From assembly GCA_951406725.2 (NCBI GenBank), contig OX597837.1, positions 31,682,001 through 31,746,000 on the forward strand: 64,000 nucleotides of DNA. Direction: 5' to 3'. Each line of letters begins with the position of its first letter. The first letter of the stretch is position 1. Position numbers and translations under genes: made by a program. Below the pieces are notes generated by a model. The model saw only the letters and a program-made list of their open reading frames with translations, had not been told where the DNA came from and searched no databases. This stretch comes from Octopus vulgaris (Eukaryota). This document shows positions 1 through 34,947 of the stretch, piece by piece.

Positions 1-111
1 AGGATGAAAGGCAAAGTTGACCTCGGCGAAATTTGAACTCGGAACGTAACGACCGACGAAATACGGCTACGCATTTCGCCAGGCGTGCAAACGTTGCTGC
101 CAACTCGCCGA
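1..111 (-). mobile_element. SINE family A (tRNA-derived head, Meta-like central domain), partial at window edge
   Basis: Reverse complement matches the GGCGGCGAGCTGGCAG...CCGAGGTCGACTTTGCCTTTCATCCT sequence of the copies at 47688 and 47961. Confidence 0.85.
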
Positions 112-388
112 GCTTCAAAAACGGGCATATAAATACAAATATACATCTGTAATTATAAAGTAAAATACTCACACACACACACAGGAACACAAACACTCAC
201 ACTCATTCACATTGAAGCACACACACACATGTGACAATACGTACCAGAACCCTGTTTCGCACACATAGAAATGAATATACACCGCCCTTGTATAAATACG
301 TATGTATACATGTAAATATTATTAGAATATATGAACTTACACATATGTGCACACACTTATATACAGCATTATATGTACGTACACACGC

Positions 389-419
<31 letters not shown>

Positions 420-651
420 TATATACATATATACGTTACATGTACATATATACATATATATACATATATATATATACATATATGCATATATATGTAAATA
501 TGTGCGTATATATATATGTATATATATATGTGTATATATATATACATATGTATATATATATATGTATATACACAAACACACATATATATATGAACATACA
601 TTACATATATACGTATAGATAAATATATTTGTGTACACACATAAATATATA

Positions 652-698
<47 letters not shown>

Positions 699-938
699 TG
701 AATTCCCCTAAAGTAACAGTATGTGTTTTGCTTGCTTATTCTCTCTTCTCAACAGATTTTATATATATATATATATATATATCTATATATATCTATAAGA
801 GTATATAAATAGATATATATATATATATGTATATGTATATATATATATAAATGTATACATAAATATATATCTATATATATATATTAAACACAAAGTAAAT
901 TAGGGGAAATGGGTGCAACCCACTAAGGGATAGTATTT

Positions 939-983
<45 letters not shown>

Positions 984-1281
984 AGGCTGGAGAGTTTCTA
1001 TTTTAGATATATTTGGGGTACTTAATCGTGCTCATGAGTGTTTGCTTCTTCCATGGGTATGAGTATTTCATTTGCCGCATTTATCATTGAGGAAAGGAGG
1101 GTTCTTATGAACTAATCATGATATCTGTCCGATATGGTAATAAGGGAATTTTTTAGAAATTTCTCTCGACCTTTTTCGAGTAGCGTACTTGTTGTGATGA
1201 ATTATATGGTTATGGACAATGTGTCTAGTTTCGGCATATTTGGCGTTGAAAGTTTTTTCGTTTGCTCTCACTTATAAGTTG

Positions 1282-1319
<38 letters not shown>

Positions 1320-1590
1320 TACATTATATTATATATGTATATCTAACTACAAACGTGTTTGCGTGTATATTGGCATATCTGTGTATGCCTTTATGTGTAT
1401 CTATGATTGTTTATATATTTTAAGTGTATATGTATGTATTTGTGTGTATGTGTTTATATATATATATGTAAATGTATGTACGTATGTATATTTATATAAG
1501 TATATATATACATATACATATTTTTATATATATTTTATATATATACGTAAATGATAGTACGTATGTATATTTATATAATTATATATATAC

Positions 1591-1641
<51 letters not shown>

Positions 1642-1794
1642 CATATTTATATATATATATATATATATGTACATATATATAGATATATAGATGTATATAT
1701 ATATATATACATATATATATGCATATATATATAAACTTATACAAATATACATCGATGTGTGTTATAATATCCCAACTTATATTTTTATGTGCAT

Positions 1795-1827
<33 letters not shown>

Positions 1828-1916
1828 AACACACACACTCTGACTTACTCATATACAAGCATGCGTGTATAAGCATTATGGACACAATGTATACAAGAAA
1901 AAACATTTACTTGCAG

Positions 1917-2008
1917 ATCTGGTGATTTGTTGGATGAGGAGTAAAGTGAACTTTCGGGATACATCCCAGAATTCCCTGCATGGTGCAGGCGGCATTTGCT
2001 CCTGGAAG
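1917..2008 (+). other. Candidate orphan exon
   Basis: TTACTTGCAG acceptor and AAG|GTAAGA donor around a 92-nt GC-richer island. Only the frame from 1919 is open (LVICWMRSKVNFRDTSQNSLHGAGGICSWK). Confidence 0.4.
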
Positions 2009-3035
2009 GTAAGAAATAATTGGACAAAATAAATAAGGTTACTTTGAAATATTTGTATATAATTGGCACCATTTATTGTCGTTATTATAATTCTAATTGT
2101 GTATTTCCTCTCCAAGTAGCTATAATTCCACTGCACAAAGTTTGATATTAGAGTCCGCAGCGTTTGCAGACTTACATCAAACAGGAGTGTTTCAAGTTAA
2201 ATACTCGTACAACATACAGAAAGTGATCTGCCTCGTACAATTTATTAACTATTGTACCATGTTAAAATGTTAAGGCTCATTGAAAGCTGTCAGCAACACA
2301 CGGAGACAACAGTGACAGATTGTAGTCTAGAAACTATAGCCATTTACTTCAACAGTAGCTATAGTGTGAAGAAGAAATCGTTGAAGGAACAAGAGACAAT
2401 AGGTCACAAAACCTTGCCCATCTACACATAAGCTAACACTCACTGGCAGGCTAGCATTAAAATGTGTTTATACGTATAATATATTTTAAATATACATATT
2501 TGTATATATGTCTGTATATCTTGTATTACATATATATACATATATAATCTACATATACATGTGTGTAAAAATTATATATATATATCATTTATACCTATAT
2601 GAGTGAGTGTATTGAACAATGCAATCATTATATTAATTTAAAGATAGAAGAAATTCATGTTGTCGCTATTGTAGCTAAGAATGGGCTACACTTCCAAGAA
2701 TCGCTCGAAACCTATTGGGGTCACGGTGTTGTAAGGGATTGTAATTCATTTCTAATTCATTTATCACTCTATCAACTACTAAACTGATGTAATGATTGCA
2801 TTGTTCAATTAAATGGAACCGCTTGATACGTTCGTACTGCATCACTACTTGATATCCTGTTGCTTATCTTGACATATATATGTATTATTACATATACAAT
2901 GTTTACACAAACATATATATATATACACACAATATTTATATAACGATCACACACACACACATATATATATATATACATATATAATAAATACATAGATATA
3001 TATATATATATATGTATGTATATATATTCAAATAG

Positions 3036-3083
<48 letters not shown>

Positions 3084-3100
3084 ATAAACATTGTTTCCAG

Positions 3101-3185
3101 GTCTTCGAACTTGTACAACCGGCTACTCTGTGGAAGTGATCGAGATCTCAACGTTCCCACCAGCTATGTGGGTCTCCAGTCTGTG
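3101..3185 (+). other. Candidate orphan exon
   Basis: TTGTTTCCAG acceptor and GTG|GTATGT donor around an 85-nt unique island. Two frames are open. Product unknown. Confidence 0.35.
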
Positions 3186-3194
3186 GTATGTCCA

Positions 3195-3330
3195 CTTATT
3201 TGTAGCTGAGTGGACCGGAGCAAAGTGAAATGAAGTGTTTTGCTCAATTACACAACGTTGCGCGGAGAAATCGAAACCACACTCTTGCTATCGTGAGTCC
3301 AACACACAAAACACTAGGCCGTGCACCTTC
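3195..3330 (-). mobile_element. Degenerate SINE family C (tRNA head, CORE-like domain)
   Basis: Reverse complement resembles TTGAGCAAAACACTTCATTTCAC...CTCAGCT of the copies at 9227, 25917 and 52658. Confidence 0.6.
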
Positions 3331-4764
3331 GCTGCATATGTGTGTAATGAAGACAAGGAAGAGGGATTGTGTCGACGGCACCGAAGCTTCGTTAGAAGGA
3401 ATATGACGGATCAACTGATATATGTATCAGCTTCTCAAGTCTTCTGAATGCCGCTTGCTTCATTAATTGCATCTACGAAACGAAAACCTATACAGGAGCA
3501 ATATAAACACACCGCATATATAATCATATACAACAGGATTAATAAACATATATACGTGATACTTAATGCTTCTTCAAATTTAAATAACAACATCATCTAA
3601 GAGAATGACATAGAAGCGGACATACCGACAATGCAGATGGCGACAAGTACGATAAACTTCAACATTCTTGATAGATTTTTATCTTCTCGGAGACGGTCTC
3701 TTCAGCTGTGTTGTGATGTGAGTGTTTTACAAGCAGCAATAAGGCATATTTATAAGAGTGGAACGTTGAATCGATAGGCTAATTTATTCATTGAAATATC
3801 TTTGAATGAAAGACTTGCACAAAAAGAGTGTAACATATGTCACAAGGTCTTTTTCATAATCTATATGGAGGCTTTGAATTTCATTTCTCTTCATTATCGA
3901 AAGTTGATTTTAATTACATTAATTAGATGTTATTGATTAATTATTTACAATAATAATTCTTTTAGCTGAAATAATTCTTTACAAAATGTGACACATTAAA
4001 TGAAATGTTAATTTGTTTCTAAATTATTCAAAATAAATGTTAAGGTTTCGAAATCAGAATGGGTGAAATATCTATATATGATATTTATTAACTTTTATCA
4101 ACTGACCAAGTATCAAGATTTTAATCTTGTTAATGAAAGATATTTCAATTTTATTTCAATATTTGTTTCCTCATAAAGTGATATCTGTCATCGTTAATCT
4201 TTGAATAATAAATTCCTTTGCATATATAGGTATAAATCTTCATACAAGTTAATTAATTACCTTGATACTTTCTTTAAATACATTTTAAGAAATATCCATT
4301 TGTACCTATATGACAGATTCTAATTCTTGAAAATTTCCAATATAATCAGTAAAACGGATAAAGGAATATTTTTTTTCATATAAATATTTCGAAGATATCA
4401 TACAGGATTAACAGATAAACATTTATAATCCGTAACTTTGTTGATATAAAGAATAAAATTTAAAGACAAACTAATTCTGGTGGTCATTATTGAATCATGA
4501 AATTAGTTTAAATTTAGGTTATTTTTAATTCTACTTTTCGAGTTCAAAATTTCTCAATCTAATTACCAGTTTTTTCTTGCAAAAAATTACAGAGATAAGG
4601 AGAGTGATTTTGAAATATTTTACCTGTAATTATATAGATCTATACTGAAGTGTGAGCAGCCACTACATTTGAAATATTCAGAATTATAAGTCAATAGTAG
4701 TAGAGAGAAGAAAAAAGATAATGTTAAGGAGGAATCTACGGGGCCAGCTCCACAGAATCACAAA

Positions 4765-5089
4765 CTTTGAGTGGTGTCCCTCAGGGCACAGTCTTAAGAC
4801 CATTACTATTCATAGTATCCCTCTCATATATGCCCTGATTCACATAGCGAACCACTCTCACAATTTATGCACATGACTTAAAAGTTTCACAGGTTACAAA
4901 GAACGCTGAATAGGTCATGCACCTTGGGCTGAAGGCAATAATATGCCGTTTAATGAGTAAGAACTCTAAGATTTGCGCTATTATCTGACAAAGTTCAATG
5001 CAATCCGGATAAAATATACTGGATCTAGAGGGATTACAGTTCTAGAATCACAAACGGTTTGTGATCTGGGTACTGATCTGGGCACTGAT
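4765..5089 (+). mobile_element. Old CR1/L2-like LINE RT remnant, left part
   Basis: Translates SGVPQGTVLRPLLF... and ...ESQTVCDLGTD, with stops. Continues after 7527. Confidence 0.75.
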
Positions 5090-7487
5090 ACTCGAAGCGA
5101 TAAGATTCGTTTCAGCTTCGCATGACTGTTTGGTACTAGGAGACTTCAACGCTCCCACGATCGATTGGCCCGCATCAATTTGTACAACATCTTCCCGGTT
5201 CGGCCAGGCCCTTCTTGACGTGGCTAAAGATTGTTTTCTATCGCAACATGTTGAATATCCGACAAGGCATCGGTCTGGGCAGCAGCCATCTATGCAGGAT
5301 CTGGTATTCTCCCGCTATCCAACATCAGTGTCAGACGTATCTGTGTGCGCCCCTCTTGCCAAGAGTGATCATGCGGTCCTGAAGTTCGTCATGCACACAA
5401 CTTTTTCTATGCCCACGACTACTTCGCTGCCACGTAGAGTCTTCTCTGCAATTAATCTTGAAATTCTAACCGAGGCTTCCGCGCTTCTGGACTGGCGATC
5501 CCTGATGACGTTGCCCTCAGTTGACGAACTATGGTCATCCCTCAAAGCATATGTAATCTGGTTGACTGACCAGGCAGTTCCCGTTGGGCTTCCCAAGAAG
5601 AAGAAACACAAGCCCTGGGTGACGAAGAAGGTTAAACGAGAACGTCGACTCAGAGATATTGCTTGGGCTGAATTCAAAAACTGGATTCGACTGCTGCTTT
5701 TGAGGTGTACAAAACTCAACGAGATCGAGCCGTGAAAATTGAAAAGGAAGAACGCTTCAGTTATGAATACAAAATCGCGGCAAATGCCAGTAGCAATCCA
5801 AAAACCTTCTTTGCCCATGTCCAACGGAATTCCCGCTTGAACAACCAGATTGCAACGTTGGTAGACTCAACAGGCGTATCGATTGAGGACCCTTATCAAC
5901 AGAGTCAATTATTTGCCGAGGCTTCTTCAACTATTTTCAAACAAGATGATGGTCGTGAACCCCCTCCATTTGATAGATCGGTACCACCAATGCCTAGATT
6001 GGTCATCACGCGGGACGAAGTCAAACGTGCTATTCAATGCCTTGATGTCAACAAGGGTCACGGCCCTGATGGCATACACCCACGGGTTATCAAAGCGTTG
6101 GCTCCGGTCATCTGCGAGCCCTTAACACGTCTATTCAATATGTCATTGGCGACGGGTGTTATACCTGCGGACTGGAGAACAGCGATAATCTGCCCAATTT
6201 TCAAGAAAGGGAGCCGCGAAGACCCGCTTAACTACCGACCGGTTTCCCTTACATCAATAATCAGCAAGATGTTCGAAACCATCCTTAAGAAAAGTATGAT
6301 GCTCCACCTCCAAAACACAGCCTCTATCTCTGATTCCCAACACGGCTTCGTGCCGAAGAGACCAGGCTTGACCAACTTACTGGTAATGGAAGAATTGGTG
6401 ACGCGCATCCTCGATGATAGTGATGCTGTTGACATCGTTTTATTGGACTTTGCCAAAGCTTTTGACTCGGTAAACCACCGCCTATTACTTGTCAAGCTTC
6501 AAGCATATACTTTCCATCCGGATATTGTACGATGGGTTGGTGCCTTCCTCTCAGATCGCTCCTTCCAAGTCCAAGTTAATGGTTCGCGGTCCGACGTCTC
6601 CAGTGCGAGCAGTGGCGTGCCTCAAGGTTCAGTGCTTGGGCCCTTATTGTTCTTAGTCTTCATAAATGACTTGCCCGACGACCTCACGCAACACACCCTT
6701 CTATTTGCCGACGATATCAAACTGGTCGCTCCTCGCGGTGATATAGAGGATCTTCGTCGATGCCTCCACCAAATTTGGAAGTGGTCTAACGAATGGGACC
6801 TGTGTCTGAACGTGTCAAAGTGCTGTCATCTGCCTGTTGGCTCTCCTCCTGCAGCTCAACTTGATTTCGAGCTGGGTCGTCTGCTGCTGGAGAGGACCGA
6901 TCAGGTAAAGGACCTGGGTATCTTGGTGGATTCCTCCTTTTCGCCTTCGGCCCAGTGCGTCCATGTTGCCAACAAAGCACGCGGAATTCTGTTCTTGATT
7001 CGACGGTCATTCGGAATGCTCACAGCAGCCATATTCCTACAACTCTATGTCACGCTGGTGAGACCCATATTGGAGTACGGGATTCAAGCCTCTTCTCCTT
7101 ATCTCCTCAAAGACATACAGCATCTCGAAAGAGTCCAGAAGCTGGCTACCCGCATGGTTCATGGTCTCAAAAATTTGTCCTATGAAGAAAGGCTGAGGAC
7201 GCTCGACCTTTATTCTCTTGAAAAACGCCACCGCTGTGGTGATCTCATTCTCGCCCACAACATCATAAGCGGAAAGTGTAACCTCTCGAAAGAGCTGTTC
7301 TTCACTCCTGCTCCAGAGCGTCGGCTGCGGGGTCATTCCGAAAAGCTCTACCTGCGACGATTTCATCTCAATCGAAGGAGAGGAGCTTTCTCCGTCCGGG
7401 TTGCGGATCCGTGGAACAAGCTGCCAGACGAGATGGTGAAGATGCCGACGACCGCTTTGTTCAAAGCCTCCCTTGACCTCAAGTGGC

Positions 7488-7527
<40 letters not shown>
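5090..7527 (+). mobile_element. Young 5'-truncated CR1-like LINE (APE endonuclease C-half plus RT), one frameshift, (AACT)n tail
   Basis: ORF 5061-5735 has GDFN, DLVFS and SDH. ORF 5705-7495 has NYRPVSLTS, QHGF, LDFAKAFDSV, SGVPQGSVLGPLLF, LFADD and RGH...WNKLP. Tail at 7488-7527. Confidence 0.95.
5705..7495 (+). CDS. Non-LTR reverse transcriptase ORF of the CR1-like LINE (frameshifted from the endonuclease part near 5680-5710)
   Basis: 596-aa ORF with canonical non-LTR RT motifs. Confidence 0.85.
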
Positions 7528-8140
7528 GTTACGCATTCTTCCATATGCATATTATTAAGTAGGCAATGATAAGCGGGCAGTTGGCCGAATGGATTCTTAT
7601 AACGTTTAGAGGAGAGCAGGAAATCATGATGGTCCTCTGGAGGACATTTTGTCTTAAGCTGTTTTGTTTGTTGCTTCCAAATATGGTCAATGCACATTGT
7701 AGAATTAACAGCGTACCTGGAAGCAGTCCAGCGAGACTACACAAGGAAAATAGCCTCAATGGCGAAAACGAATTACTAGGAAGGACTGAAGTGGTTAAGA
7801 CTAATCCCTGAAACGACGGCGGGAAAGATATACTGCAATATACACCTGGATGATCCAGGAAGGACTTGTCCCAAACTGATAGTTATACAAACATTAGAAT
7901 AGAGTGCCATTGCATAGTACCTAAAATCCCGCCTCTGTCGACAAACTAGAGGATCAAATATTGAATAGGTTGGGATTCAAAGACACACACCTCATCAGTA
8001 TCTTCCTAAAGGAACTGAGAGACCTTCATGTTGTGAATGTATATGTCTTCAAAACTAACCTGGATCACCTACTGTCAAGAGCCCTAAATGAGCCAATTTA
8101 GGGGAATTGTTAGCAACAACAAACACCTTCATTTACTAAA
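7528..8140 (+). mobile_element. Old CR1/L2-like LINE RT remnant, right part
   Basis: Translates AEWILITFR, LEAVQRDYTRKI, RRRERYTAIYTW and FKTNLDHLL with stops and frameshifts. Collinear with 4765-5089. Confidence 0.75.
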
Positions 8141-8241
8141 TGTCAGCAGATAAAGAAGAATTAATAAAAGGTGTAGCAATACTAGTTAATGGTGGCCCAT
8201 AACAGCCACAGACGTAGAGATGAAGGTAGGGAAAACTAATA

Positions 8242-8305
<64 letters not shown>

Positions 8306-8325
8306 GTATGTGTGTGTGTATATAT

Positions 8326-8704
<379 letters not shown>

Positions 8705-9177
8705 TACAGTCTTTCAAATTATTGTAACATTGTTTTGTTTTATTTACAAATTACGCGTTGGAATACAACGTAACATCCACAGAATGATAGTAAGAGTTTT
8801 ATGCGTGTGGGGGCATAAAAACCTGAGACTTTGCTCTAGTGTAGACAAACCTCGACCATTTGCATGATGACCACTACGTGGACATCAAAGGAATACTGAT
8901 GAGCTACGGACAATTACGCAAGTAATTTGCGTAAATGTTAATAGCGAAATTAGCTTATGATAAATCTATATTTTGTTTCTTTTCATTTGTCTTGCTCGCT
9001 TACATTCTGGCGTTTGTTAAACTTTCTTGAGAACATTCCTTTCTTAGTGGTAAGACCATAGCGGAACTACTTCTAGCATAATGGATGTCCACGTAGAGCT
9101 TATCTCTCTTATATGAATGTAATATATTTTTTCTGAATCTTCAGGTTTTCATATAGTTTAAATTCATATATGCATAC

Positions 9178-9226
<49 letters not shown>

Positions 9227-9228
<2 letters not shown>

Positions 9229-9522
9229 TTGTGAGCTCGAATCCCGGACCGGGCTGCGTGTTGTGTTCTTGAGCAAGGCACTTTATTTCACGTTGCTCCA
9301 GTTCACTCAGCTGTAGAAATGAGTTGCGACGTCACTAGTGCCAAGCTGTATCGACCTTTGTCTTTCCCTTGGATAACACTGGTGGCGTGGAGAGGGAAGG
9401 CTGGTATGCATGGGCGACTGCTGGTCTTCCATAAACAACCTTGCCCGGACTTGTGTCTAGAAGGGTAACTTTCTAGGTGCAATCCCATGGTCATTCATGA
9501 CCGAAGGGGGTCTTTACCCTTT
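9227..9522 (+). mobile_element. SINE family C, 5'-truncated
   Basis: Near-identical to 52690-52988. CORE-like TGTTCTTGAGCAAGGCACTT...CTGTAGAAATGAG. Confidence 0.85.
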
Positions 9523-9589
9523 TATATATATATGTAAAAAAGAAGTTTGAAAGCGCCACTATATTAGATAAATTCTAATTTTCTTATGA

Positions 9590-9634
9590 ATTTTACATGT
9601 TTCGGTTCTTGAAAAAACGAACCTTTTCAAAAAT
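9590..9634 (-). ncRNA. Type I hammerhead ribozyme motif, U3-A8 core variant
   Basis: AUUU-UUGAAAA-GGUUC-loop-GAACC-GAAA-CAUG-UA-AAAU. Confidence 0.65.
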
Positions 9635-9934
9635 ATTATAAAAAGTGCAATAGAAAAGTTCTTAGTTGTTTCTTACTGGTCTCAATAGAATCCGTGTGGT
9701 GGTGTTTTGTTGGTAGGTGGTATAATCGCTATATTATAGTTGCGGGGTTGCCACTATTCCATTGGAACACAAGCACGGTTCCTTTTGATAACAGCAAGAA
9801 AGAATAATGAACTTCTTTACTACACGCAACTATAATATAGCGATTATACCAACTACCGACAAAACACCACCACACGGATTCTATTGAGACCAGTAAGAAA
9901 CAACTATGAACTTTTCTATTGCACTTTTTATAAT

Positions 9935-9981
9935 ATTTTTGATAAGGTTCGTGTTTTTTCAAGAACCGAAACATGTAAAAT
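9935..9981 (+). ncRNA. Type I hammerhead ribozyme motif, U3-A8 core variant
   Basis: AUUU-UUGAUAA-GGUUC-loop-GAACC-GAAA-CAUG-UA-AAAU. Helix III is the palindrome ACAUGU. Confidence 0.7.
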
Positions 9982-10194
9982 TCATAAGAAAATTAAAATT
10001 TATCTAATATAGTGGCGTTTTCAAACTTCTTTTTTACAAATATATACCCACTCGTACACGATCTACTCTTATTATAAATATATATATATATATATACATA
10101 TATACCTATTTAATAAATGCGCCCTTTTCCCGACTAACCAGTTTCATGGGCCCGGTTTCTCGGTTTCAATGGCGTATGTGTTCCCCAGCTGGAT

Positions 10195-10260
10195 GACCAG
10201 CGATGTGTAGCAAAATCTGATAGCCTGGACGGTCACGGTGATCACGGTTATCACGGTGAT
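10195..10260 (+). mobile_element. RTE-like LINE 3' end with (TCACGGTGA)n tail
   Basis: TGACCAGCG...tail resembles the 3' end of the RTE at 43242-43300, whose tail is TCAAGGTGA. Confidence 0.5.
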
Positions 10261-10326
10261 ATTCATGTATATATATGTATACGTATATATGTGTATATAT
10301 ATATATGTGTGTGTATGTATGTATAT

Positions 10327-10383
<57 letters not shown>

Positions 10384-11049
10384 CATGTATATATACATAC
10401 ATGTATATATACTTATATATATACATATATATGTATGTATATTTATCTAAAGGTTGGGCCAAACATCCCGCACGAAAACATTTGCCGTTATATTTATATT
10501 ACGTTATTATTACTGTTATTCATTTTGTTCATCTTGTTCGTGTGTATTCATTGTAGTTTTTACTTTATTCAACTTTAGAAAAATTGTAACATGTCTTTGA
10601 GCGTGACTTTTGACTCGCCTTTGAAATATATACACACATATACAGAAACACACACACACACACACAAACACATATGTATAGGTTTGAAAATATGTAGAAA
10701 ACATATATAGAAGTGAAAGAGAAATGCCTTCGTTTCTCATGGTTTAATATCTTTTTATAAAGAAATTTTTTTAGAATATATGCATATCTTTTGGATGTAG
10801 TGATATCCAACCGGTTTTGCCATTTATATTAGCTTTTCAAGGGACGTGGGGATGTAATCAATTCTGGTGTCAAAGGGGTCTCACCATTTTGGATGCTTGA
10901 AAAATAAGAATGAGTCTGGAGTGTGGATCAAGGGAGGTGAGAGGAGGCAATGGGGACAGATACACAGACATGCAGGAAGTAAATAGACACATTTAATATT
11001 CAAAATCTCTGATCTAACCGTCTTAATACTTTTTCAGAGGTGTAGAATT

Positions 11050-11880
11050 TACAATGTAATTATTCGTTTTCATTCCAGGTGCCATTATATTAAACATTTG
11101 CGAAAATTTTCAAATTCCTCTTGTTAGTGTTAATAGAGTTATAGTGCAATTCAAAAGTCAAGTAAAAGAATCAACAGATTCTCGTCCCGGCCGACCTGGG
11201 CCCTCGGAAAGGTAGCTTCGCTGTTTGCAGAGAAGTGTGGAAAACGAATCCAGATCGAACGCTCCTGACATTGCTAAACAGCTAGAAGTTAGTCCAAGAA
11301 CGTGTGTTACATATCTGGATGAGCTTGAGTATTATGGACGAGCAGCTAGAAGAAAACTTCTCCTTCAACCAATTAATATCATAAAAAGAAAGAAATGGGC
11401 TCTGGAGATGTCAGAAAAATCCAGTTCATTTTTGGATAGAGTGATTTTCTCAGATGAATCCATATTTGCATTATTTTCAGACAGTGAACGTGTTTGGGAC
11501 AGGAGGCTTCCAAATCAAGAATTTGATTTGAAACGACTCCAACCAACTGTGAAACACGGTGGTATCTCTGTAATGGTATGGGGAGCTGTCATCAGCAATG
11601 GTCGTTCTGAGCTGATCGAATGTGTTGGAACCATAAACTCTGAAAAGTACATCGAAATTCTAAAGCAATGACAACTTCCGATGTATTCACACGATAACAT
11701 AAGGGAAAAAGTGCTTTTATTCATGGAAGATGGGGCTCTGTATCACACAGCGAAAGGGTATCAACAATGTCTGACTGAAACTGGGATCAAAAAGGTTCCT
11801 TGACCAAGCCAATCTCCTGACATGAACCCAATTGAAAATCTTTGGAGCATTCCTGATAGAGCTATACGAAAATCTCGACA
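11050..11880 (+). mobile_element. Tc1-like (DD34E) transposase relic
   Basis: [30 protein letters not shown]...*PSQSPDMNPIENLW, with 34 residues between D and E. In-frame stops present. Confidence 0.92.
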
Positions 11881-12713
11881 GCGTAAAAGCAAAATATTAT
11901 CGTTTGTTGGTTTTTCATTCCCCTCCTCATCCCGGCACCACCAACACCACCCATTAAATTCAGTCAACCAGATCAATCATTAATGGCATTGAAGTCATGG
12001 CCATCTTACACTTTTGCCTAGCTAGGTCTCCAAAGTTGTTCCTTCCAAAAAGTAGTTATATGTGGAATGAGAATGATTTTGCTGCTATTATTGGCAGGTC
12101 AAGACACCACATACGCTAGTTGGTTAATTTATTTGTGGATATTTTTTTTGCTTTCAGAAAAGTCTGTAATTCTTCACCAACATTGCCACTATTCTATAAT
12201 CCTCGATTTTAGATTGAGAAAGTTTTGAGCTCCAATGGTCCTTGCGCCTATTCCAGAAATCGAAACCGTATTACAAAGTCGTCAAGTTGTATGATAGTAT
12301 GCTTTCTTCAATTGTAGCACCTGTTAATTATAATTAGGTAGGGAAATAATTTATTTGGCTTTTGTTCTTAATTTCAAAACTTTATTCATTGATATCGATA
12401 TTCATAGTTTACAAATTGAAAGGAATTCTAAAAACAAAATCTATATTACTAGTATTAATTGAGGTGTAAAAGTACGACAGATGCTTATAAAGTAAAGCTA
12501 ACGGTATTGGGACTTTAATTGTGAACATTGAGTTATGGGTAATTAACATATTTACATATTTATTTACACAAAAGCTAAAAAATATCTTGAAAGTGCTCTA
12601 TTGAAATATTTGAATGAAATTTAATTAATGTTCAAACAATATCGCAATGAATGGTAAAACATATGTTGTGTAGCAATCAATAACGTATTTAATATTAATT
12701 AGGTATATGTACC

Positions 12714-12721
12714 TATAAATA
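12714..12721 (+). promoter_or_regulatory. Candidate TATA box (TATAAATA) of the secreted-protein gene
   Basis: Lies about 90 nt upstream of the ATG at 12808, which has a CAACATG context. AT-rich background lowers specificity. Confidence 0.5.
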
Positions 12722-12807
12722 TAACGAGAGTTTTCACTATAAGTATTCAACGCCTTCCTGAACTACTGCTGAGACCGTCTGAAGTCACACTAAAACCATC
12801 TTTCAAC

Positions 12808-12847
12808 ATGTACAAGTTTATGCTTATTGCTGCCCTCTTTGTTGCCG
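12808..12847 (+). CDS. Small secreted Cys-rich protein, coding exon 1 (signal peptide MYKFMLIAALFVA-G)
   Basis: ATG, hydrophobic signal peptide, and a phase-1 donor G|GTGAGT. Confidence 0.85.
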
Positions 12848-14025
12848 GTGAGTCCAGATTTGAATAATATTTTGCTTTATATCTTTTATAGTTTATACTT
12901 GAAAACCGTTGCAATGCGCTTAGCAAGTCCCTAAATATATGACATAACTTGTTGTTGAATGATAGATTTATTGATTATAGAGAGATGAAAGTAGAGTTTG
13001 AGTTACATACACACGAGATATGCTGTGAGAATGATAAGGCCTACATGAAGTGCAATAATTTGAAGAATCCTCATCCAAAACAATACCATTCAGGGGAATA
13101 AGACGGTCGAAATGTTAAACATTGTTCAATTGGAACCAATGACTACCCACTGTTCAGTTGATCTGAAAGTTGGGTTGTATTTGTAGAAATCGAAAACAGA
13201 CGAAACATTGTAGATGACGACGAATTGTTAATAGATAACATGTTCTTTGTTGATATTATTTCTTAAGGTCGATGTCTCTATTTACTATTACGCTGTGTAT
13301 TATAAGGGGACAAATGAAAATGCTGACATGAGTCAAGACAATGGCATAAAAAGTAAAAGACCCTGAAATGGAGGCAGTCAAGGCAGAGAGTAAGACGCGA
13401 GAAACGAAAGATAGGCACCAACTTCCACCAATTAACCCATTCATAAAATTATACTAAATTAAAAATGTGAGCGTTTGTGTGAGTGTCTGTCTTTCATCTT
13501 CCGATGTAATCTGTAATTCGATCAGCCACCAATGAATAGAGAGCGTTTAATAGATTCCCACCCTACCCAGTAGATTTTGGATTATAAGCTACCTTCAATC
13601 GTTTCCTCTACATAAGTACAGATATACATAGGTTTAACAAGCCATGGATATTAGTGTATAAAATTATGCACTATCTTAATTTAATCTCTACACGTGCATT
13701 CCGTTATGTAACCCATTAATCCAAATATATATTTTAATGTTTAATCTATCGATATATTGATCTTTCATTGGTGACTATACCAGATTGATATTTTAAGGTG
13801 TCAATAAGTCAATTTCATTTTTTTCATCTTGCAATAGAGCTGATGTACATGTTAATGTGTGAGTATATTCAATACATGTTTAAACCTCTGTATATATAAC
13901 GAATACTTTCCTAGTAATATCGTATAATTTACTACAAATATATTATCACATAGATTTATATATTTGTAGGAATTAAAAATCCCCAGAAATATTTACATTT
14001 CTAAATATTTAATCATTGTTTTCAG

Positions 14026-14122
14026 GTGCATATGGCGAGTGTAATACAGACGTAGCCATCGGTTGTCTTGTTGGCAAAATTAACGAAGTAGCAACAAACC
14101 TTAACCGTTCTGATTTATGCAG
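14026..14122 (+). CDS. Small secreted Cys-rich protein, coding exon 2 (G-AYGECNTDVAIGCLVGKINEVATNLNRSDLC-S)
   Basis: TTGTTTTCAG acceptor and AG|GTAAGA donor. Phase 1 in, phase 2 out, frame open. Confidence 0.85.
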
Positions 14123-15350
14123 GTAAGATGATGAATTTCTTTCTGGAAGGAGTCTTTGATTCTTACCTTTGCTTTTGATCCTACCTCACATAATCTAACG
14201 TCTGCGGGCTTTATACTATTTGAAAAAGTGTCCCTTTCAACATTCGATTTGAAGTGTGTATGCGCGTATGTGTGTTTGTACGTATGCATACATACATACA
14301 TACATACATACATACATACATACATACAAACATACATACATACATACATACATACATACATACATACATACATACATACATACATACATACATACATTCT
14401 ACATACATACATACATACATACATACATACATACGTTCTACATACATAAAAACATAAATACATGCATGGAATATATGTAACATACTAAGTACCATTCTTG
14501 AGAACATGGGCATCTCAAAACCAGAAAGGAGAAAGCTGATTCCAAAACTACAGTCCCAAGTCATCAATGGCACTGTAAATATCTGTAAAACGTTCCAGAG
14601 GTTTATCATTGAAGTATATATGTGCTTGTCTGGATATGCAAATACATGGATGAGAATACATAACATAAAACAAAACATACACATTTACACACGTACTGAC
14701 TCCAAATACTGCACATATACAGACATGCATGCAAAAATACCGTTTTGATGTTGTTGATGCTGCAATAAAAGAACTTTGGATTTAAGTTAGAAACCGGCTC
14801 TTTCTCTATTGGAAAGGATTCTTGAATTAAAACTGAATAATGACGTGCATACGTTCATAAATACATACATACATATATACATACATACATATATACATAC
14901 AGGTATACATACATACATACATACATACATACATACGTACATACATACATACATACATACATACATACATACATACATACATACATACATAAATACATAC
15001 ATACATACATACATATATACAGATATACAGATATACATGTATATATGTATTTATAGATGTATGCATGTATATGTTTACGTATTATCCGTATCTGATTACT
15101 GTGTGTATATAAATAATTAGAGGAGATAATTTCAACATCAATCACCATCATTTCTTTGTGTTTTGGATTAGAAACATATTCTATTGGTTACACATAAACA
15201 TTTTCGTAAATAATTTTAACGATGCGACCCTAGAGACAATTATCATTTGAGACAAACAAACAACATTTAACATTCAATATCTCATTTACGCATTCTATTC
15301 GTATTTAGTACAATGTAGAAATAACCATGTTTATTGCGATTCTATTCCAG

Positions 15351-15427
15351 TGACTTGGCCAGCGTTGCTCATTGCATGACCGCAGCAGGCTGTGCAGGAG
15401 ATGCAGGATTCTTGACCTCCATGTGCG
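15351..15427 (+). CDS. Small secreted Cys-rich protein, coding exon 3 (S-DLASVAHCMTAAGCAGDAGFLTSMC)
   Basis: CTATTCCAG acceptor, phase-compatible with exon 2. Ends either at a G|GTATGT donor or reads GM then TAA TAG (stop ending 15435). Confidence 0.8.
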
Positions 15428-15579
15428 GTATGTAATAGTTTAATATTCATCATCACACACACGTATACACACGTACAGAAGGACATACACACAATCACAC
15501 ACAGTGGCACGCACGTACACACACATACACACACCAGCTGGCACGCTTGCACACGCCTACGAACTTTATATGTATATAT

Positions 15580-16297
15580 TGCATCTGCTCTCTCTCCCTG
15601 CACCTGTTTCGCCGTCACCCGTCTCCAGATTCCCCTCACCTACCACCCCTACACCCTTCCTCTCCAGCAATATTCTCCGGGTTTTCCCGTGACTCAAGTC
15701 CGACCCCTCCACTTCGCACATATTACCTAACCTCTCCTTCCCATCCTTCAGACGAGCACACAACCTACGTGACTTCCTAGCCCACAGTTTCTTCCCTCAC
15801 CCCACCTACCATCCCGGCTAGTTCCTCTACTCCCGCCTACGCTGCCGCACCTGCCTCTACCGCTCCAACACCACACTCATCACAGGTACCCATCATTGAC
15901 CATTATCATATCATTGACTTCTACACCTGCACCTCTAGCAACGTTATCTACTGCATCACCAGCTCTCCCACTGTCCTTCTCTATACATCGTTCAAACGGG
16001 ACGCCGCTTGGCTGACAGGTTCCCGGAACACCTCCGAGGGATCAGACACCTCGGCCTTGCGCTATTTCCGCTCTACCGGTCATTCTTTACAACCCCTATC
16101 TTTGTTCGGATCGTGCACCTCTCTTCTCTTGCTCTGACTTCCTTTCTTCAATCTGTTTATTTTCTCGTGATCCTTTCTGTTGAAGAGCGTAGGCTTGAAA
16201 CGTAAAAGACTGTCTCACCTTCTCAAGCGTTAAACTAATACACATCTATGTTGTTTACACACGCGTCTTCGTCCTTAGGCTTTTTGTAAATTCCAAC

Positions 16298-16300
<3 letters not shown>
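15580..16300 (+). mobile_element. Penelope-like element remnant (GIY-YIG endonuclease plus 3' terminal repeat)
   Basis: Translates SFRRAHNLRDFL, CRTC, YTCTSSNVIYCIT and LYIVQTGRRLADRFPEHLR. The 3' end is shared with 26440, 33870 and 56835. Confidence 0.85.
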
Positions 16301-16336
<36 letters not shown>

Positions 16337-16373
16337 ATGCATATATGCATGAATGTATGTACACATATACGAC

Positions 16374-16473
16374 NNNNNNNNNNNNNNNNNNNNNNNNNNN
16401 NNNNNNNNNNNNNNNNNNNNNNNNNNNNNNNNNNNNNNNNNNNNNNNNNNNNNNNNNNNNNNNNNNNNNNNNN
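16374..16473. other. Assembly gap (100 N)
   Basis: Direct reading. True length and contiguity are unknown. Confidence 1.
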
Positions 16474-19400
16474 TCCTTTCCAGACCATAAAAGCACATTC
16501 ATGTTATATCCTTTCCAGACCATAAAAGCACATTCATGTTATATCCTTTCCAGACCATAAAAGCACATTCATGTTATATCCTTTCCAGACCATAAAAGCA
16601 CATTCATGTTATATCCTTTCCATAAAACCATAAATCCTTTCCAGACCATAAAGACACATTCATGTTATATCCTTTCCAGACCATAAAGACACATTCATGT
16701 TATATCCTTTCCAGACCATAAAGACACATTCATGTTATATCCTTTCCAGACCATAAAAGCACATTCATGTTATATCCTTTTCCAGACCATAAAAGCACAT
16801 TCATGTTATATCCTTTCCAGACCATAATCTCACATTCATGTTATATCCTTTCAAGACCATAAAGACACATTCATGTTATATCCTTTCCAGACCATAAAAG
16901 CACATTCATGTTATATCCTTTCCAGACCATAAAAGCACATTCATGTTATATCCTTTCCAGACCATAAAAGCACATTCATGTTATATCCTTTCCAGACCAT
17001 AAAAGCACATTCATGTTATATCCTTTCCAGACCATAAAAGCACATTCATGTTATATCCTTTCCAGACCATAAAAGCACATTCATGTTATATCCTTTCCAG
17101 ACCATAAAATCACATTCATGTTATATCCTTTCCAGACCATAAAAGCACATTCATGTTATATCCTTTCCAGACCATAAAGACACATTCATGTTATATCCTT
17201 TCCAGACCATAAAAGCACATTCATGTTATATCCTTTCCAGACCATAAAGACACATTCATGTTATATCCTTTCCAGACCATAAAAGCACATTCATGTTATA
17301 TCCTTTCCAGACCATAAAAGCACATTCATGTTATATCCTTTCCAGACCATAAAGCACATTTATGTTGTATCCTTTCCAGACCATAAAGACACATTCATGT
17401 TATATCCTTTCCAGACCATAAAAGCACATTCATGTTATATCCTTTCCAGACCATAAAAGCACATTCATGTTATATCCTTTCAAGACCATAAAGACACATT
17501 CATGTTATATCCTTTCCAGACCATAAAAGCACATTCATGTTATATCCTTTCCAGACTATAAAAGCACATTCATGTTATATCCTTTCCAGACTATAAAAGC
17601 ACATTCATGTTATATCCTTTCCAGACCATAAAAGCACATTCATGTTATATCCTTTCCAGACTATAAAAGCACATTCATGTTATATCCGTTCCAGACCATA
17701 AAAGCACATTCATGTTATATCCTTTCCAGACCATAAAGACACATTCATGTTATATCCTTTCCAGACCATAAAGGCACATTCATGTTATATCCTTTCCAGA
17801 CCATAAAAGCACATTCATGTTATATCCTTTCCAGACCATAAAAGCACATTCATGTTATATCCTTTCCAGACCATAAAGACACATTCATGTTATATCCTTT
17901 CCAGACCATAAAGACACATTCATGTTATATCCTTTCCAGACCATAAAGACACATTCATGTTATATCCTTTCCAGACCATAAAAGCACATTCATGTTATAT
18001 CCTTTCCAGACCATAAAGCACATTTATGTTGTATCCTTTCCAGACATAAAGACACATTCATGTTATATCCTTTCCAGACCATAAAGACACATTCATGTTA
18101 TATCCTTTCCAGACCATAAAGACACATTCATGTTATATCCTTTCCAGACCATAAAGACACATTCATGTTATATCCTTTCCAGACCATAAAGACACATTCA
18201 TGTTATATCCTTTCCAGACCATAAAAGCACATTCATGTTATATCCTTTCCAGACCATAAAGACACATTCATGTTATATCCTTTCCAGACTGCATAAAAGA
18301 CACATTCATTCATGTTATATCCTTTCCAGACCATAAAGACACATTCATGTTATATCCTTTCCAGACCATAAAAGCACATTCATGTTATATCCTTTCCAGA
18401 CCATAAAGACACATTCATGTTATATCCTTTCCAGACCATAAAGACACATTCATGTTATATCCTTTCCAGACCATAAAAGCACATTCATGTTATATCCTTT
18501 CCAGACCATAAAAGCACATTCATGTTATATCCTTTCCAGACCATAAAAGCACATTCATGTTATATCCTTTCCAGACCATAAAGACACATTCATGTTATAT
18601 CCTTTCCAGACCATAAAGACACATTCATGTTATATCCTTTCCAGACCATAAAGACACATTCATGTTATATCCTTTCCAGACGACAAACCACATTCATGTT
18701 ATATCCTTTCCAGATCATAAAAGCACATTCATGTTATATCCTTTCCAGACCATAAAAGCACATTCATGTTATATCCTTTCCAGACCATAAAAGCACATTC
18801 ATGTTATATCCTTTCCAGACCATAAAGCACATTCATGTTATATCCTTTCCAGACCATAAAACACATTCATGTTATATCCTTTCCAGACCATAAAAGCACA
18901 TTCATGTTATATCCTTTCCAGACCATAAAAGCACATTCATGTTATATCCTTTCCAGACCATAAAGACACATTCATGTTATATCCTTTCCAGACCATAAAG
19001 CACATTCATGTTATATCCTTTCCAGACATACAATTCATGTTATATCCTTTCCAGACCATAAAGCACATTCATGTTATATCCTTTCCAGACAGCAAATATG
19101 TTATATCCTTTCCAGACCATAAAGAGCACATTCATGTTATATCCTTTCCAGACCATAAAAGCACATTCATGTTATATCCTTTCCAGACCATAAAGACACA
19201 TTCATGTTATATCCTTTCCAGACCATAAAGCACATTCATGTTATATCCTTTCCAGACCATAAAGCACATTCATGTTATATCCTTTCCAGACCATAAAGAC
19301 ACATTCATGTTATATCCTTTCCAGACCATAAAAGCACATTCATGTTATATCCTTTCCAGACCATAAAAGCACATTCATGTTATATCCTTTCCAGACCATA

Positions 19401-21105
19401 AAAGCACATTCATGTTATATCCTTTCCAGACCATAAAAGCACATTCATGTTATATCCTTTCCAGACCATAAAGACACATTCATGTTATATCCTTTCCAGA
19501 CCATAAAGAGCATTCATTCATGTTATATCCTTTCCAGACCATAAAAGCACATTCATGTTATATCCTTTCCAGACCATAAAAGCACATTCATGTTATATCC
19601 TTTCCAGACCATAAAAGCACATTCATGTTATATCCTTTCCAGACCATAAAGACACATTCATGTTATATCCTTTCCAGACCATAAAAGCACATTCATGTTA
19701 TATCCTTTCCAGACCATAAAAGCACATTCATGTTATATCCTTTCCAGACCATAAAGCACATTCATGTTATATCCTTTCCAGACCATAAAAGCACATTCAT
19801 GTTATATCCTTTCCAGACCATAAAAGCACATTCATGTTATATCCTTTCCAGACCATAAAAGCACATTCATGTTATATCCTTTCCAGACCATAAAAGCACA
19901 TTCATGTTATATCCTTTCCAGACCATAAAGACACATTCATGTTATATCCTTTCCAGACCATAAAAGCACATTCATGTTATATCCTTTCCAGACCATAAAA
20001 GCACATTCATGTTATATCCTTTCCAGACCATAAAAGCACATTCATGTTATATCCTTTCCAGACCATAAAAGCACATTCATGTTATATCCTTTCCAGACCA
20101 TAAAGACACATTCATGTTATATCCTTTCCAGACCATAAAAGCACATTCATGTTATATCCTTTCCAGACCATAAAAGCACATTCATGTTATATCCTTTCCA
20201 GACCATAAAAGCACATTCATGTTATATCCTTTCCAGACCATAAAGCACATTCATGTTATATCCTTTCCAGACCATAAAAGCACATTCATGTTATATCCTT
20301 TCCAGACCATAAAGACACATTCATGTTATATCCTTTCCAGACCATAAAAGCACATTCATGTTATATCCTTTCCAGACCATAAAAGCACATTCATGTTATA
20401 TCCTTTCCAGACCATAAAGACACATTCATGTTATATCCTTTCCAGACCATAAAGCACATTCATGTTAATCCTTTCCAGACCATAAAGCACATTCATGTTA
20501 TATCCTTTCCAGACCATAAAAGCACCACATTCATGTTAATCCTTTCCAGACCATAAAGCAATTCATGTTATATCCTTTCCAGACCATAAAAGCACATTCA
20601 TGTTATATCCTTTCCAGACCATAAAAGCACATTCATGTTATATCCTTTCCAGACCATAAAGACACATTCATGTTATATCCTTTCCAGACCATAAAAGCAC
20701 ATTCATGTTATATCCTTTCCAGACCATAAAGACACATTCATGTTATATCCTTTCCAGACCATAAAGACACATTCATGTTATATCCTTTCCAGAGCATAAA
20801 AGACACATTCATGTTATATCCTTTCCAGACCATAAAGACACATTCATATTATATCCTTTCCAGACCATAAAGACACATTCATGTTATATCCTTTCCAGAC
20901 CATAAAGACACATTCATGTTATATCCTTTCCAGACCATAAAGACACATTCATGTTATATCCTTTCCAGACCATATAGACACATTCATGTTATATCCTTTC
21001 CAGACCATAAAGACACATTCATGTTATATCCTTTCTAGACCATAAAGACACATTCCTGTTATATCTTTTCCAGACCATGTTATATCCTTTCCATTCATGT
21101 TATAT
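16474..21105. repeat. 35-bp satellite, about 130 copies (TCCTTTCCAGACCATAAAAGCACATTCATGTTATA)
   Basis: Period 35 (units start at 16474, 16509 and so on). Two main variants, AAAAGCAC and AAAGACAC. Confidence 0.99.
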
Positions 21106-34675: not shown

Positions 34676-34823
34676 TATTTTAATTTAACCTTAAAAAAAT
34701 GAACGAACTATTGAGTTTGGTTTGATGGCCTACCAATGTATACTATGAGTTTCTTTGCCCTAGGAGTCGGGAAGACGCTCGGCAAGAAATGGAAGCAAAT
34801 TTGAAAGAAGAAGAAAAAAAAAC
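34676..34823 (+). mobile_element. R4/Dong LINE, 3'UTR-only copy inserted in (AAT)n
   Basis: Nearly identical to 36535-36649, with (AAT)n on both sides. Confidence 0.85.
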
Positions 34824-34870
<47 letters not shown>

Positions 34871-34947
34871 TAATAATAATAATAATGATGATGATGATGA
34901 TGACGATGATGATGATGATGATGACGATGATGATAATAATAATAATG

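What the first reader, a model, noticed from the sequence alone, without database searches (positions are those of the whole stretch)
12714..15435. Unannotated three-exon gene for a small secreted six-cysteine protein
Seen: three exons with consensus splice sites and compatible phases (1, then 2) splice to MYKFMLIAALFVAGAYG-ECNTDVAIGCLVGKINEVATNLNRSDLCSDLASVAHCMTAAGCAGDAGFLTSMC. It has a signal peptide ending A-Y-G, Cys spacing C-x7-C-x17-C-x8-C-x5-C-x10-C and an NRS sequon. It is invisible in the ORF track. It either ends GM-stop (73 aa) or splices at GTATGT to an exon I could not find, possibly lost in the gap. I do not recognise the family. Inference: a lineage-restricted secreted protein (gland, skin, defence or signalling).
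Basis: partly seen in the sequence, partly recalled or inferred. Interest (0 to 1): 0.7.

Follow-up and report, generated by a model that had tools for sequence, protein, structure and literature searches.

The report
Amplified octopus eleven-cysteine secreted protein
These three exons are the front half of a real, spliced octopus gene that sits in four neighbouring copies and encodes a 136-residue, eleven-cysteine protein with relatives found only in octopuses and the argonaut; it is likely a bulk glandular secretion that would link up through one spare cysteine, but its tissue and job are untested.

Summary
RNA-type contigs from three studies join exon 1 to exon 2 and run on into exon 3. But the gene has six exons and is annotated. 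Three more copies lie within 110 kb upstream and show exons 4-6. The full product is 136 aa with 11 cysteines (P0001, 'hypothetical protein', Octopus vulgaris). The window copy stops at a 100-N gap 32 bases before exon 4; its public model (P0003) splices wrongly into a satellite. Two exon pairs of 174 nt each, with phases 1-2-1, encode two predicted three-helix modules. The second lacks one cysteine in both Octopus and Argonauta, the only other genus found among 1.84 billion representatives. No family passes its cut-off; DUF19/CPG4 is a weak lead. Best reading: a high-dose secreted, disulfide-stapled glycoprotein that likely links covalently through the spare cysteine. Tissue and function are unknown. 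The scan had not found this on other DNA. Modest interest.

The parts
12714..12719 (+). TATA box
   Evidence: RNA-type contig depth rises sharply in the bin 12731-12807
12808..12847 (+). Coding part of exon 1: residues 1-13 of the predicted signal peptide; phase-1 GT donor. The 5' UTR starts within about 12731-12807.
12848..14025 (+). Intron 1 (1178 nt, GT..AG); 0 substitutions against copies B and C, 35 against copy A
   Evidence: joint in X1, X3, X10, absent from X18
14026..14122 (+). Exon 2 (97 nt, phase 1 to 2): end of signal peptide, C19, C27, sequon N40, C45
15351..15427 (+). Exon 3 (77 nt, phase 2 to 1): C54, C60, C71; completes module 1 (174 nt with exon 2)
   Evidence: its first letters are the loose ends at 14122 in 3 runs
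15428..16373 (+). Intron 3, cut by the gap 32 bases before the place of exon 4 in copies B and C
16374..16473 (.). Assembly gap (100 N, true size unknown). Exons 4-6 of this copy are either inside it or absent. In copy B (G000:C24) exon 4 is 31642931-31643018, exon 5 31644315-31644400, exon 6 coding 31644651-31644673.
16474..21078 (+). 35-bp satellite (about 130 units) after the gap; each unit carries a pyrimidine-CAG acceptor look-alike; all 58 exact genome matches to one unit lie here
20411..20556 (+). Last exon of the public model of this copy (P0003, CAI9740243.1); it lies in the satellite and is most likely a prediction artefact
1..16373 (+). Third unit (D) of a tandem array of ~28-kb units; the unit begins 3.9 kb left of the window and carries a LINE and a Tc1-like element shared with units B and C

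Best explanation
The window holds exons 1-3 of one of four neighbouring copies of a spliced six-exon octopus gene whose 136-residue product is predicted to be secreted, and which likely serves as a bulk, non-enzymatic gland product that would form covalent dimers or join a mucus or coat through one unpaired cysteine. Shown: the gene, its splicing through exon 3, the four copies, and 11 cysteines plus the N40 sequon kept in Argonauta. Inferred: (1) the first 17 residues are cleaved, giving an acidic 11.7-kDa chain with one N-glycan; (2) the chain is two three-helix modules from an old duplication of a two-exon unit; (3) module 1 closes three disulfides, probably 19-60, 27-54 and 45-71, judged from where the cysteines fall on the predicted helices; (4) module 2 lost the equivalent of C45, so C129 near the flexible C-terminus would be free to bond to another chain; (5) recent near-identical copies raise the dose, and fast change of surface residues suggests contact with something outside the animal or from another individual. 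The window copy itself may be complete inside the gap or a truncated duplicate.
For: Splicing. Six exons with GT/AG ends, an open 136-codon frame and AATAAA about 85 nt after the stop in copy B. Modules: exons 2+3 and 4+5 are both 174 nt with phases 1-2-1, and both AlphaFold models give three helices per half. Odd cysteine kept: Octopus and Argonauta share 11 mature cysteines; domain-2 spacing is identical (7, 24, 5, 13) although only 5 of 54 other residues match. No C-terminal hydrophobic anchor; highest 19-residue hydropathy 1.38 among windows sampled every third residue. Dose: units B, C, D are 97-99% identical over 28 kb, with 0 of 214 coding differences in exons 1-3; O. sinensis and Argonauta each have two models. 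Abundance: junction contigs have depth 3,930-9,714 against 7-47 for intron-1 contigs, and 2,693 contigs of run X1 fall on 2.3 kb. Fast change: 0 of 17 signal residues but 8-9 of 55 domain-1 residues differ from O. sinensis, 6.5-7.3 per 100 replacement sites against 29 of 1431 intron letters (Fisher p 0.007 and 0.002).
Against: No tissue, no protein detection and no assay. The models are weak (mean pLDDT 49.7 and 53.3; residues 73-136 of P0001 under 50) and give no coordinates, so the disulfide pairing is a geometric guess. The two halves are not detectably alike in sequence (hhalign probability 0.2%; shuffle test 464 of 1000). Contig depth is a poor measure of expression, as the tool warns. 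The rate excess weakens against the most diverged intron contig (p 0.08 and 0.04), is absent in domain 2 (1-3 of 120 sites) and absent between copies A and B (10 of 259 against 35 of 1179, p 0.43); domain 1 was picked after seeing the data. Domain 2 is hydrophobic and Gly/Ala-rich in Octopus but polar in Argonauta, so one shared job is not assured.
Confidence: 0.4

Rival explanations
1. It is a salivary or venom component that acts on prey, one of the short secreted cysteine-rich (SSCR) proteins of cephalopod salivary glands.
For: Conserved signal peptide with a variable mature region on a fixed cysteine frame (59% against 40% and 17% identity to Argonauta), tandem copies, apparent high abundance. 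PMC7693380 (section 2.3 read) lists seven SSCR protein groups, one of unknown function; PMC5554399 (passages) mentions putative toxins without homology.
Against: Acidic (pI 4.3, net charge about -7) with one aromatic residue in the mature chain; no match to any toxin family or fold. No direct link to a salivary gland.
Confidence: 0.2
2. It is a reproductive product: an egg-string cement, spermatophore or gamete-coat protein, or a water-borne pheromone working like the small helical disulfide-rich mollusc attractins (recalled).
For: Fast interspecies change in domain 1 with few differences among copies B, C, D is typical of reproductive proteins (established knowledge); small, helical, glycosylated, secreted.
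Against: No Pfam family other than CPG4 and Pet191_N matched at E<=10. No sex or gonad evidence was obtained.
Confidence: 0.2
3. It is an antimicrobial or membrane-active protein whose Gly/Ala-rich second domain (residues 83-108) inserts into membranes like a class II bacteriocin.
For: Best PDB sequence hit is carnobacteriocin B2 over residues 70-107 (E 0.044); three GxxxG motifs in domain 2.
Against: E rises to 0.66 once Argonauta is in the profile; no YGNG motif; net negative charge; the Argonauta orthologue has no GxxxG and a Gly+Ala+Ser share of 0.15 against 0.36.
Confidence: 0.1
4. It is a low-dose signalling ligand or growth-factor binder whose six-cysteine helical domain works like the RGM N-terminal domain.
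For: RGMB (6z3m_C) is row 11 of the fold search, Z 4.2, rmsd 2.9, 52 aligned, model 21-72; the octopus RGM_N domain shares the C3-x8-C4 spacing.
Against: Z 4.2 is inside the noise of that list (3.8-4.8); hhalign probability 0.2%; 92 of 1000 cysteine-fixed shuffles score as well; apparent bulk expression and gene amplification fit a signal poorly.
Confidence: 0.07
5. About the window copy only: it is not a separate working gene but a truncated duplicate or an assembly duplicate of the tandem array, and the RNA seen comes from copies B and C.
For: Exons 4-5 occur only three times in the genome; nothing after the gap matches the 3' 8 kb of unit C at >=95% over >=100 bp (0 of 29 hits); B, C and D are identical in exons 1-3, so reads cannot tell them apart.
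Against: The break falls exactly at a gap of unknown size; promoter, exons and splice sites are intact; units differ by indels and 1-3% over 28 kb, and B and C are joined without a gap. Argonauta also has a 72-aa one-domain model next to a full one, so a short form may be real.
Confidence: 0.4

Closest known systems
Public hypothetical proteins CAI9740239.1 / CAI9740241.1 / CAI9740237.1 / CAI9740243.1 (O. vulgaris), XP_036368934.1 / XP_036368610.1 (O. sinensis), GAB1601747.1 / GAB1601749.1 (Argonauta hians)
   Same: These are this gene, its copies and its orthologues; CAI9740243.1 is the model of the window copy.
   Different: None carries a name, a domain or, in the searches made, a paper. 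Two models look mis-spliced: CAI9740243.1 after exon 3, CAI9740237.1 after exon 4.
DUF19 / T20D4.11-like (PF01579) and chondroitin proteoglycan 4 domain (PF15481) of nematodes
   Same: Secreted cysteine-rich helical domains; nearest named clusters by language-model features for the Argonauta protein (0.81, 0.80, 0.77); CPG4 E 0.15 over residues 38-72.
   Different: Below both curated cut-offs; feature scores under 0.9 with 140-154 shared features are leads only; the octopus protein itself gave no usable Atlas hit; odd cysteine count.
RGM N-terminal domain (PF06535; RGMB, PDB 6z3m)
   Same: Six cysteines, C3-x8-C4 spacing, small helical bundle; weak fold match (Z 4.2).
   Different: Other spacings differ (4, 22, 8, 7, 21 against 7, 17, 8, 5, 10); no sequence match; the rest of RGM (C-terminal domain, membrane anchor; recalled) is absent.
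Short secreted cysteine-rich (SSCR) proteins of cephalopod salivary glands (PMC7693380)
   Same: Short, signal peptide, 9% cysteine, no known family.
   Different: SSCR is a descriptive class tied to the gland; presence of this protein there is not shown.

Membership tests
DUF19 (PF01579) | HMM score at or above the curated cut-off (23.2 bits) | tested here: not met
   0 of 6 alignment members matched at E<=10; the family search of the genome did not ring at this locus
DUF19 (PF01579) | Two tandem cysteine-rich helical halves in a secreted protein (recalled) | tested here: inconclusive
   Two 174-nt modules, 6+5 cysteines, three predicted helices each; feature score 0.81 is a lead only
CPG4 (PF15481) | HMM score at or above 32.7 bits | tested here: not met
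   13.1 bits, E 0.15; 2 of 6 members at E<=10
RGM_N (PF06535) | Sequence profile match | tested here: not met
   No Pfam hit; hhalign to the octopus RGM_N domain 0.2%; 92 of 1000 shuffles score as high
RGM_N (PF06535) | Three-helix bundle with three disulfides (recalled) | tested here: inconclusive
   Z 4.2, rmsd 2.9, 52 aligned, tied with unrelated rows, on a model of pLDDT 53
Class IIa bacteriocins | N-terminal YGNG(V) motif (recalled) | tested here: not met
   Absent from P0001
Class IIa bacteriocins | Cationic peptide (recalled) | tested here: not met
   Mature chain pI 4.3, charge about -6.7
Cephalopod salivary SSCR proteins | Short, signal peptide, cysteine-rich | tested here: met
   136 aa, 11 Cys in 119 mature residues; signal peptide judged from the sequence, no SignalP available
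Cephalopod salivary SSCR proteins | Found in salivary gland or saliva | not testable with these tools
   Runs carry no tissue label; the proteome supplement was cut when stored and its SSCR table gives transcript ids, not peptides

The most novel reading that the evidence does not exclude
An octopod-only family that is one of the main secreted products of some octopus gland: a two-module helical protein with a cysteine left unpaired since Octopus and Argonauta split, used to build covalent dimers or a cross-linked coat, amplified again and again in tandem, with its first module under positive selection and its second remodelled in Octopus into a hydrophobic glycine-zipper surface.
Probability: 0.2. 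Interest if true: 0.6.

Novelty: new member of a known kind. Interest (0 to 1): 0.35.

Why it matters
If it is as abundant as the contigs suggest, this is a major octopus secretion with no name, family or paper found, and a direct target for the open question of what the unnamed small cysteine-rich proteins of cephalopod glands do. The corrected six-exon model and the predicted free cysteine make that testable in one expression panel and one gel. As a kind of object it is ordinary: lineage-restricted, small, secreted cysteine-rich genes in tandem copies are common in invertebrates, and this one is already in public annotation.

Tried and rejected
73-aa read-through ending: rejected (no poly(A) signal before the gap; homologues continue). 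Public exon 4 in the satellite (P0003): rejected as a likely artefact (126 acceptor look-alikes in the array). More distant paralogues: none in the 264-kb region or the genome (best others E 0.46-2.8, with stops). Fold searches: no Foldseek match at E<=0.001 for either model; best VIA Z 7.3 and 4.8, generic helical bundles that mostly use the signal peptide as a helix; this shows neither a new fold nor a known one. NCBIfam: nothing near a cut-off. Neuritin family: no match in the genome. Homodimer prediction: no answer, score 0.02, alignment not used; no evidence either way. Literature: no main text holds the accessions or five peptide motifs. Supplements searched without a hit: PMC10138644 (skin mucus; file cut when stored), PMC7693380 (cut; 63, 123), PMC9712504 (one file unreadable; 93), PMC9699675, PMC11202624, PMC12607849 (393 characters held; 117). 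These blanks are weak, and unseen supplements may hold the tissue. The RGM structure paper was not held, so its disulfide pattern is not cited. Earlier scan findings: none on this protein or place.

Full report
Observation. A script on the window reproduces every coordinate given: TATAAA 12714, ATG 12808, donor after 12847, exon 2 14026-14122, exon 3 15351-15427, phases 1, 2, 1, and the 71-residue translation. The stop-to-stop frames over exons 2 and 3 are 37 and 36 aa. The window has one gap, 16374-16473.

Transcription. Of 24 runs listed, 20 hold the stretch or part of it and 9 hold half of its words or more; none is on record as RNA. I laid 4 of them on 12500-14800. The GT..AG joint 12847/14026 stands in X1, X3 and X10 (three studies, two organisms) and not in X18, whose contigs run through the introns like DNA. 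In all three RNA-type runs the loose ends at 14122 read the first letters of exon 3. Junction contigs have depth 3,930-9,714; intron-1 contigs 7-47; summed exon-2 depth is 22,000-61,000 times intron depth in these runs and about equal in X18. The tool warns that contig depth measures expression poorly, so 'very abundant' is an inference.

The gene is longer and multi-copy. Exon 2 occurs four times in G000, all on C24 within about 105 kb: copies B, C and D (the window) in tandem on +, copy A inverted. B, C and D lie in ~28-kb units that are 97-99% identical. Reading on in B, C and A shows exon 4 (88 nt), exon 5 (86 nt) and a short last coding exon, all with GT/AG ends, giving 136 codons and 11 cysteines at 19, 27, 45, 54, 60, 71, 76, 84, 109, 115, 129; AATAAA follows the stop in B. 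The window copy matches B and C up to the gap and stops 32 bases before exon 4. Exons 4-5 occur only three times in the genome, and nothing after the gap matches the 3' part of unit C (0 of 29 hits at >=95% over >=100 bp). After the gap lies a 35-bp satellite whose 58 exact genome matches are all here. So copy D is either complete inside the gap or truncated. B, C and D have 0 differences in 214 coding bases of exons 1-3 and 0 substitutions in intron 1, fewer than the 1.22% heterozygosity reported for the species (10.1101/2023.05.16.540928, passages) would give between alleles; this points to very recent duplication or homogenisation, though a duplicated assembly of copy D is not excluded.

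It is annotated. The product of copy B is P0001 (CAI9740239.1, 'hypothetical predicted protein', O. vulgaris); copy C is P0004; two O. sinensis proteins are 89-91% identical. The window copy is P0003 (CAI9740243.1), whose last 47 residues are read from the satellite at 20413 onward, most likely a false exon.

Range. Among 1.84 billion representatives, 4 proteins reach E<=0.001: three models of this locus and one from Argonauta hians, whose cluster holds a 72-aa and a 131-aa model. A profile search added nothing (4 of 1,335 candidates). The Argonauta protein keeps all 11 mature cysteines and the sequon. Identity is 10 of 17 in the signal peptide, 21 of 53 in domain 1 and 10 of 59 in domain 2, where the cysteine spacing is nonetheless identical. 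Absence elsewhere is limited by what is annotated and by the fast divergence.

Anatomy. Exons 2+3 and 4+5 are each 174 nt with phases 1-2-1; in both pairs the phase-2 intron lies eight codons before a C-x5-C motif, and both start C-x7-C. Both AlphaFold models are all-helical with three helices per half, at low confidence (pLDDT 49.7, 53.3). I infer an old duplication of a two-exon module, although the halves no longer align. The position equal to C45 is alanine in Octopus domain 2 and not cysteine in Argonauta. If an antiparallel three-helix module pairs cysteines 1-5, 2-4 and 3-6 (inferred from their places on the helices), C129 has no partner. An odd cysteine kept across two families is the basis for the proposed inter-chain bond. 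The mature chain is 11.7 kDa, pI 4.3, GRAVY 0.6, with no predicted membrane anchor; the Argonauta chain is polar (GRAVY -0.35).

Rate of change. Against the two O. sinensis proteins (residues 1-129 compared) the signal peptide has 0 changes, domain 1 has 8 and 9, domain 2 has 1 and 3. That is 6.5-7.3 per 100 replacement sites in domain 1, against 29 of 1431 intron letters in four contigs of run X10, whose exon letters agree with those proteins (p 0.007, 0.002; against the most diverged contig alone p 0.08, 0.04). Copies A and B show no excess (p 0.43). This is a hint of positive selection, not a test.

Comparison with known families. Pfam gives CPG4 at 13.1 bits against a cut-off of 32.7. The Atlas puts the Argonauta protein nearest to nematode DUF19 and CPG4 clusters at 0.77-0.81, lead level only, with an unrelated archaeal cluster at 0.80, and gives nothing for P0001. 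RGM_N shares one spacing and a noise-level fold match but fails sequence tests. A bacteriocin resemblance in domain 2 (E 0.044) fails on motif, charge and conservation. It may work like other small disulfide-stapled helical secreted proteins; it cannot be filed in any of these families.

Literature seen. PMC7693380: section 2.3, passages, cut supplement. PMC5554399: passages; it notes that anterior salivary mucus holds neutral glycoproteins with SH and S-S groups, which would suit this protein but does not name it. 10.64898/2026.04.09.716377: abstract and outline only; a different, decapodiform family. PMC12607849: passages and a near-empty supplement. PMC10138644, PMC9712504, PMC9699675, PMC11202624: supplement searches only. 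No hit for accessions or peptides.

Verdict. A real gene (near certain), already annotated without function, longer than first read, amplified, apparently abundant and octopod-restricted as far as searched. The likeliest role is a bulk secreted protein linked through a spare cysteine (0.4); venom, reproductive, antimicrobial and signalling roles remain open. Interest 0.35; new member of a known kind.

Noticed in passing
window 16474-21078: A 35-bp satellite of about 130 units directly after the gap; all 58 exact matches to one unit in the genome lie here; it misled a public gene model (P0003).
   Followed up: yes
window 5046-7495 (+): LINE remnant with endonuclease (PF14529) and reverse transcriptase (PF00078) in overlapping frames; 99.6-100% identical copies in units B and C.
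   Followed up: partly
window 11216-11671 (+): Tc1-like transposase fragment about 1 kb upstream of the TATA box, present in all four copies, so older than the duplications.
   Followed up: partly
window 34726-36516 (+): Long frame with a reverse-transcriptase match (PF00078, E 1e-7), a second LINE-type remnant.
   Followed up: no
G000:C24:31588065-31594992 (-), copy A: Inverted copy with an intact six-exon frame and 8 residue changes against copy B; its public model P0002 departs after exon 4 and looks mis-spliced.
   Followed up: partly
P0007 / P0008 (Argonauta hians): A 72-aa one-domain model beside a 131-aa two-domain model, the same pattern as window copy D against B and C; artefact or real short form is unknown.
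   Followed up: no
L052:1501-1707 (-) (G000:C2:46683999-46684205): The octopus RGM N-terminal domain, over the Pfam cut-off; used only as a comparison.
   Followed up: partly
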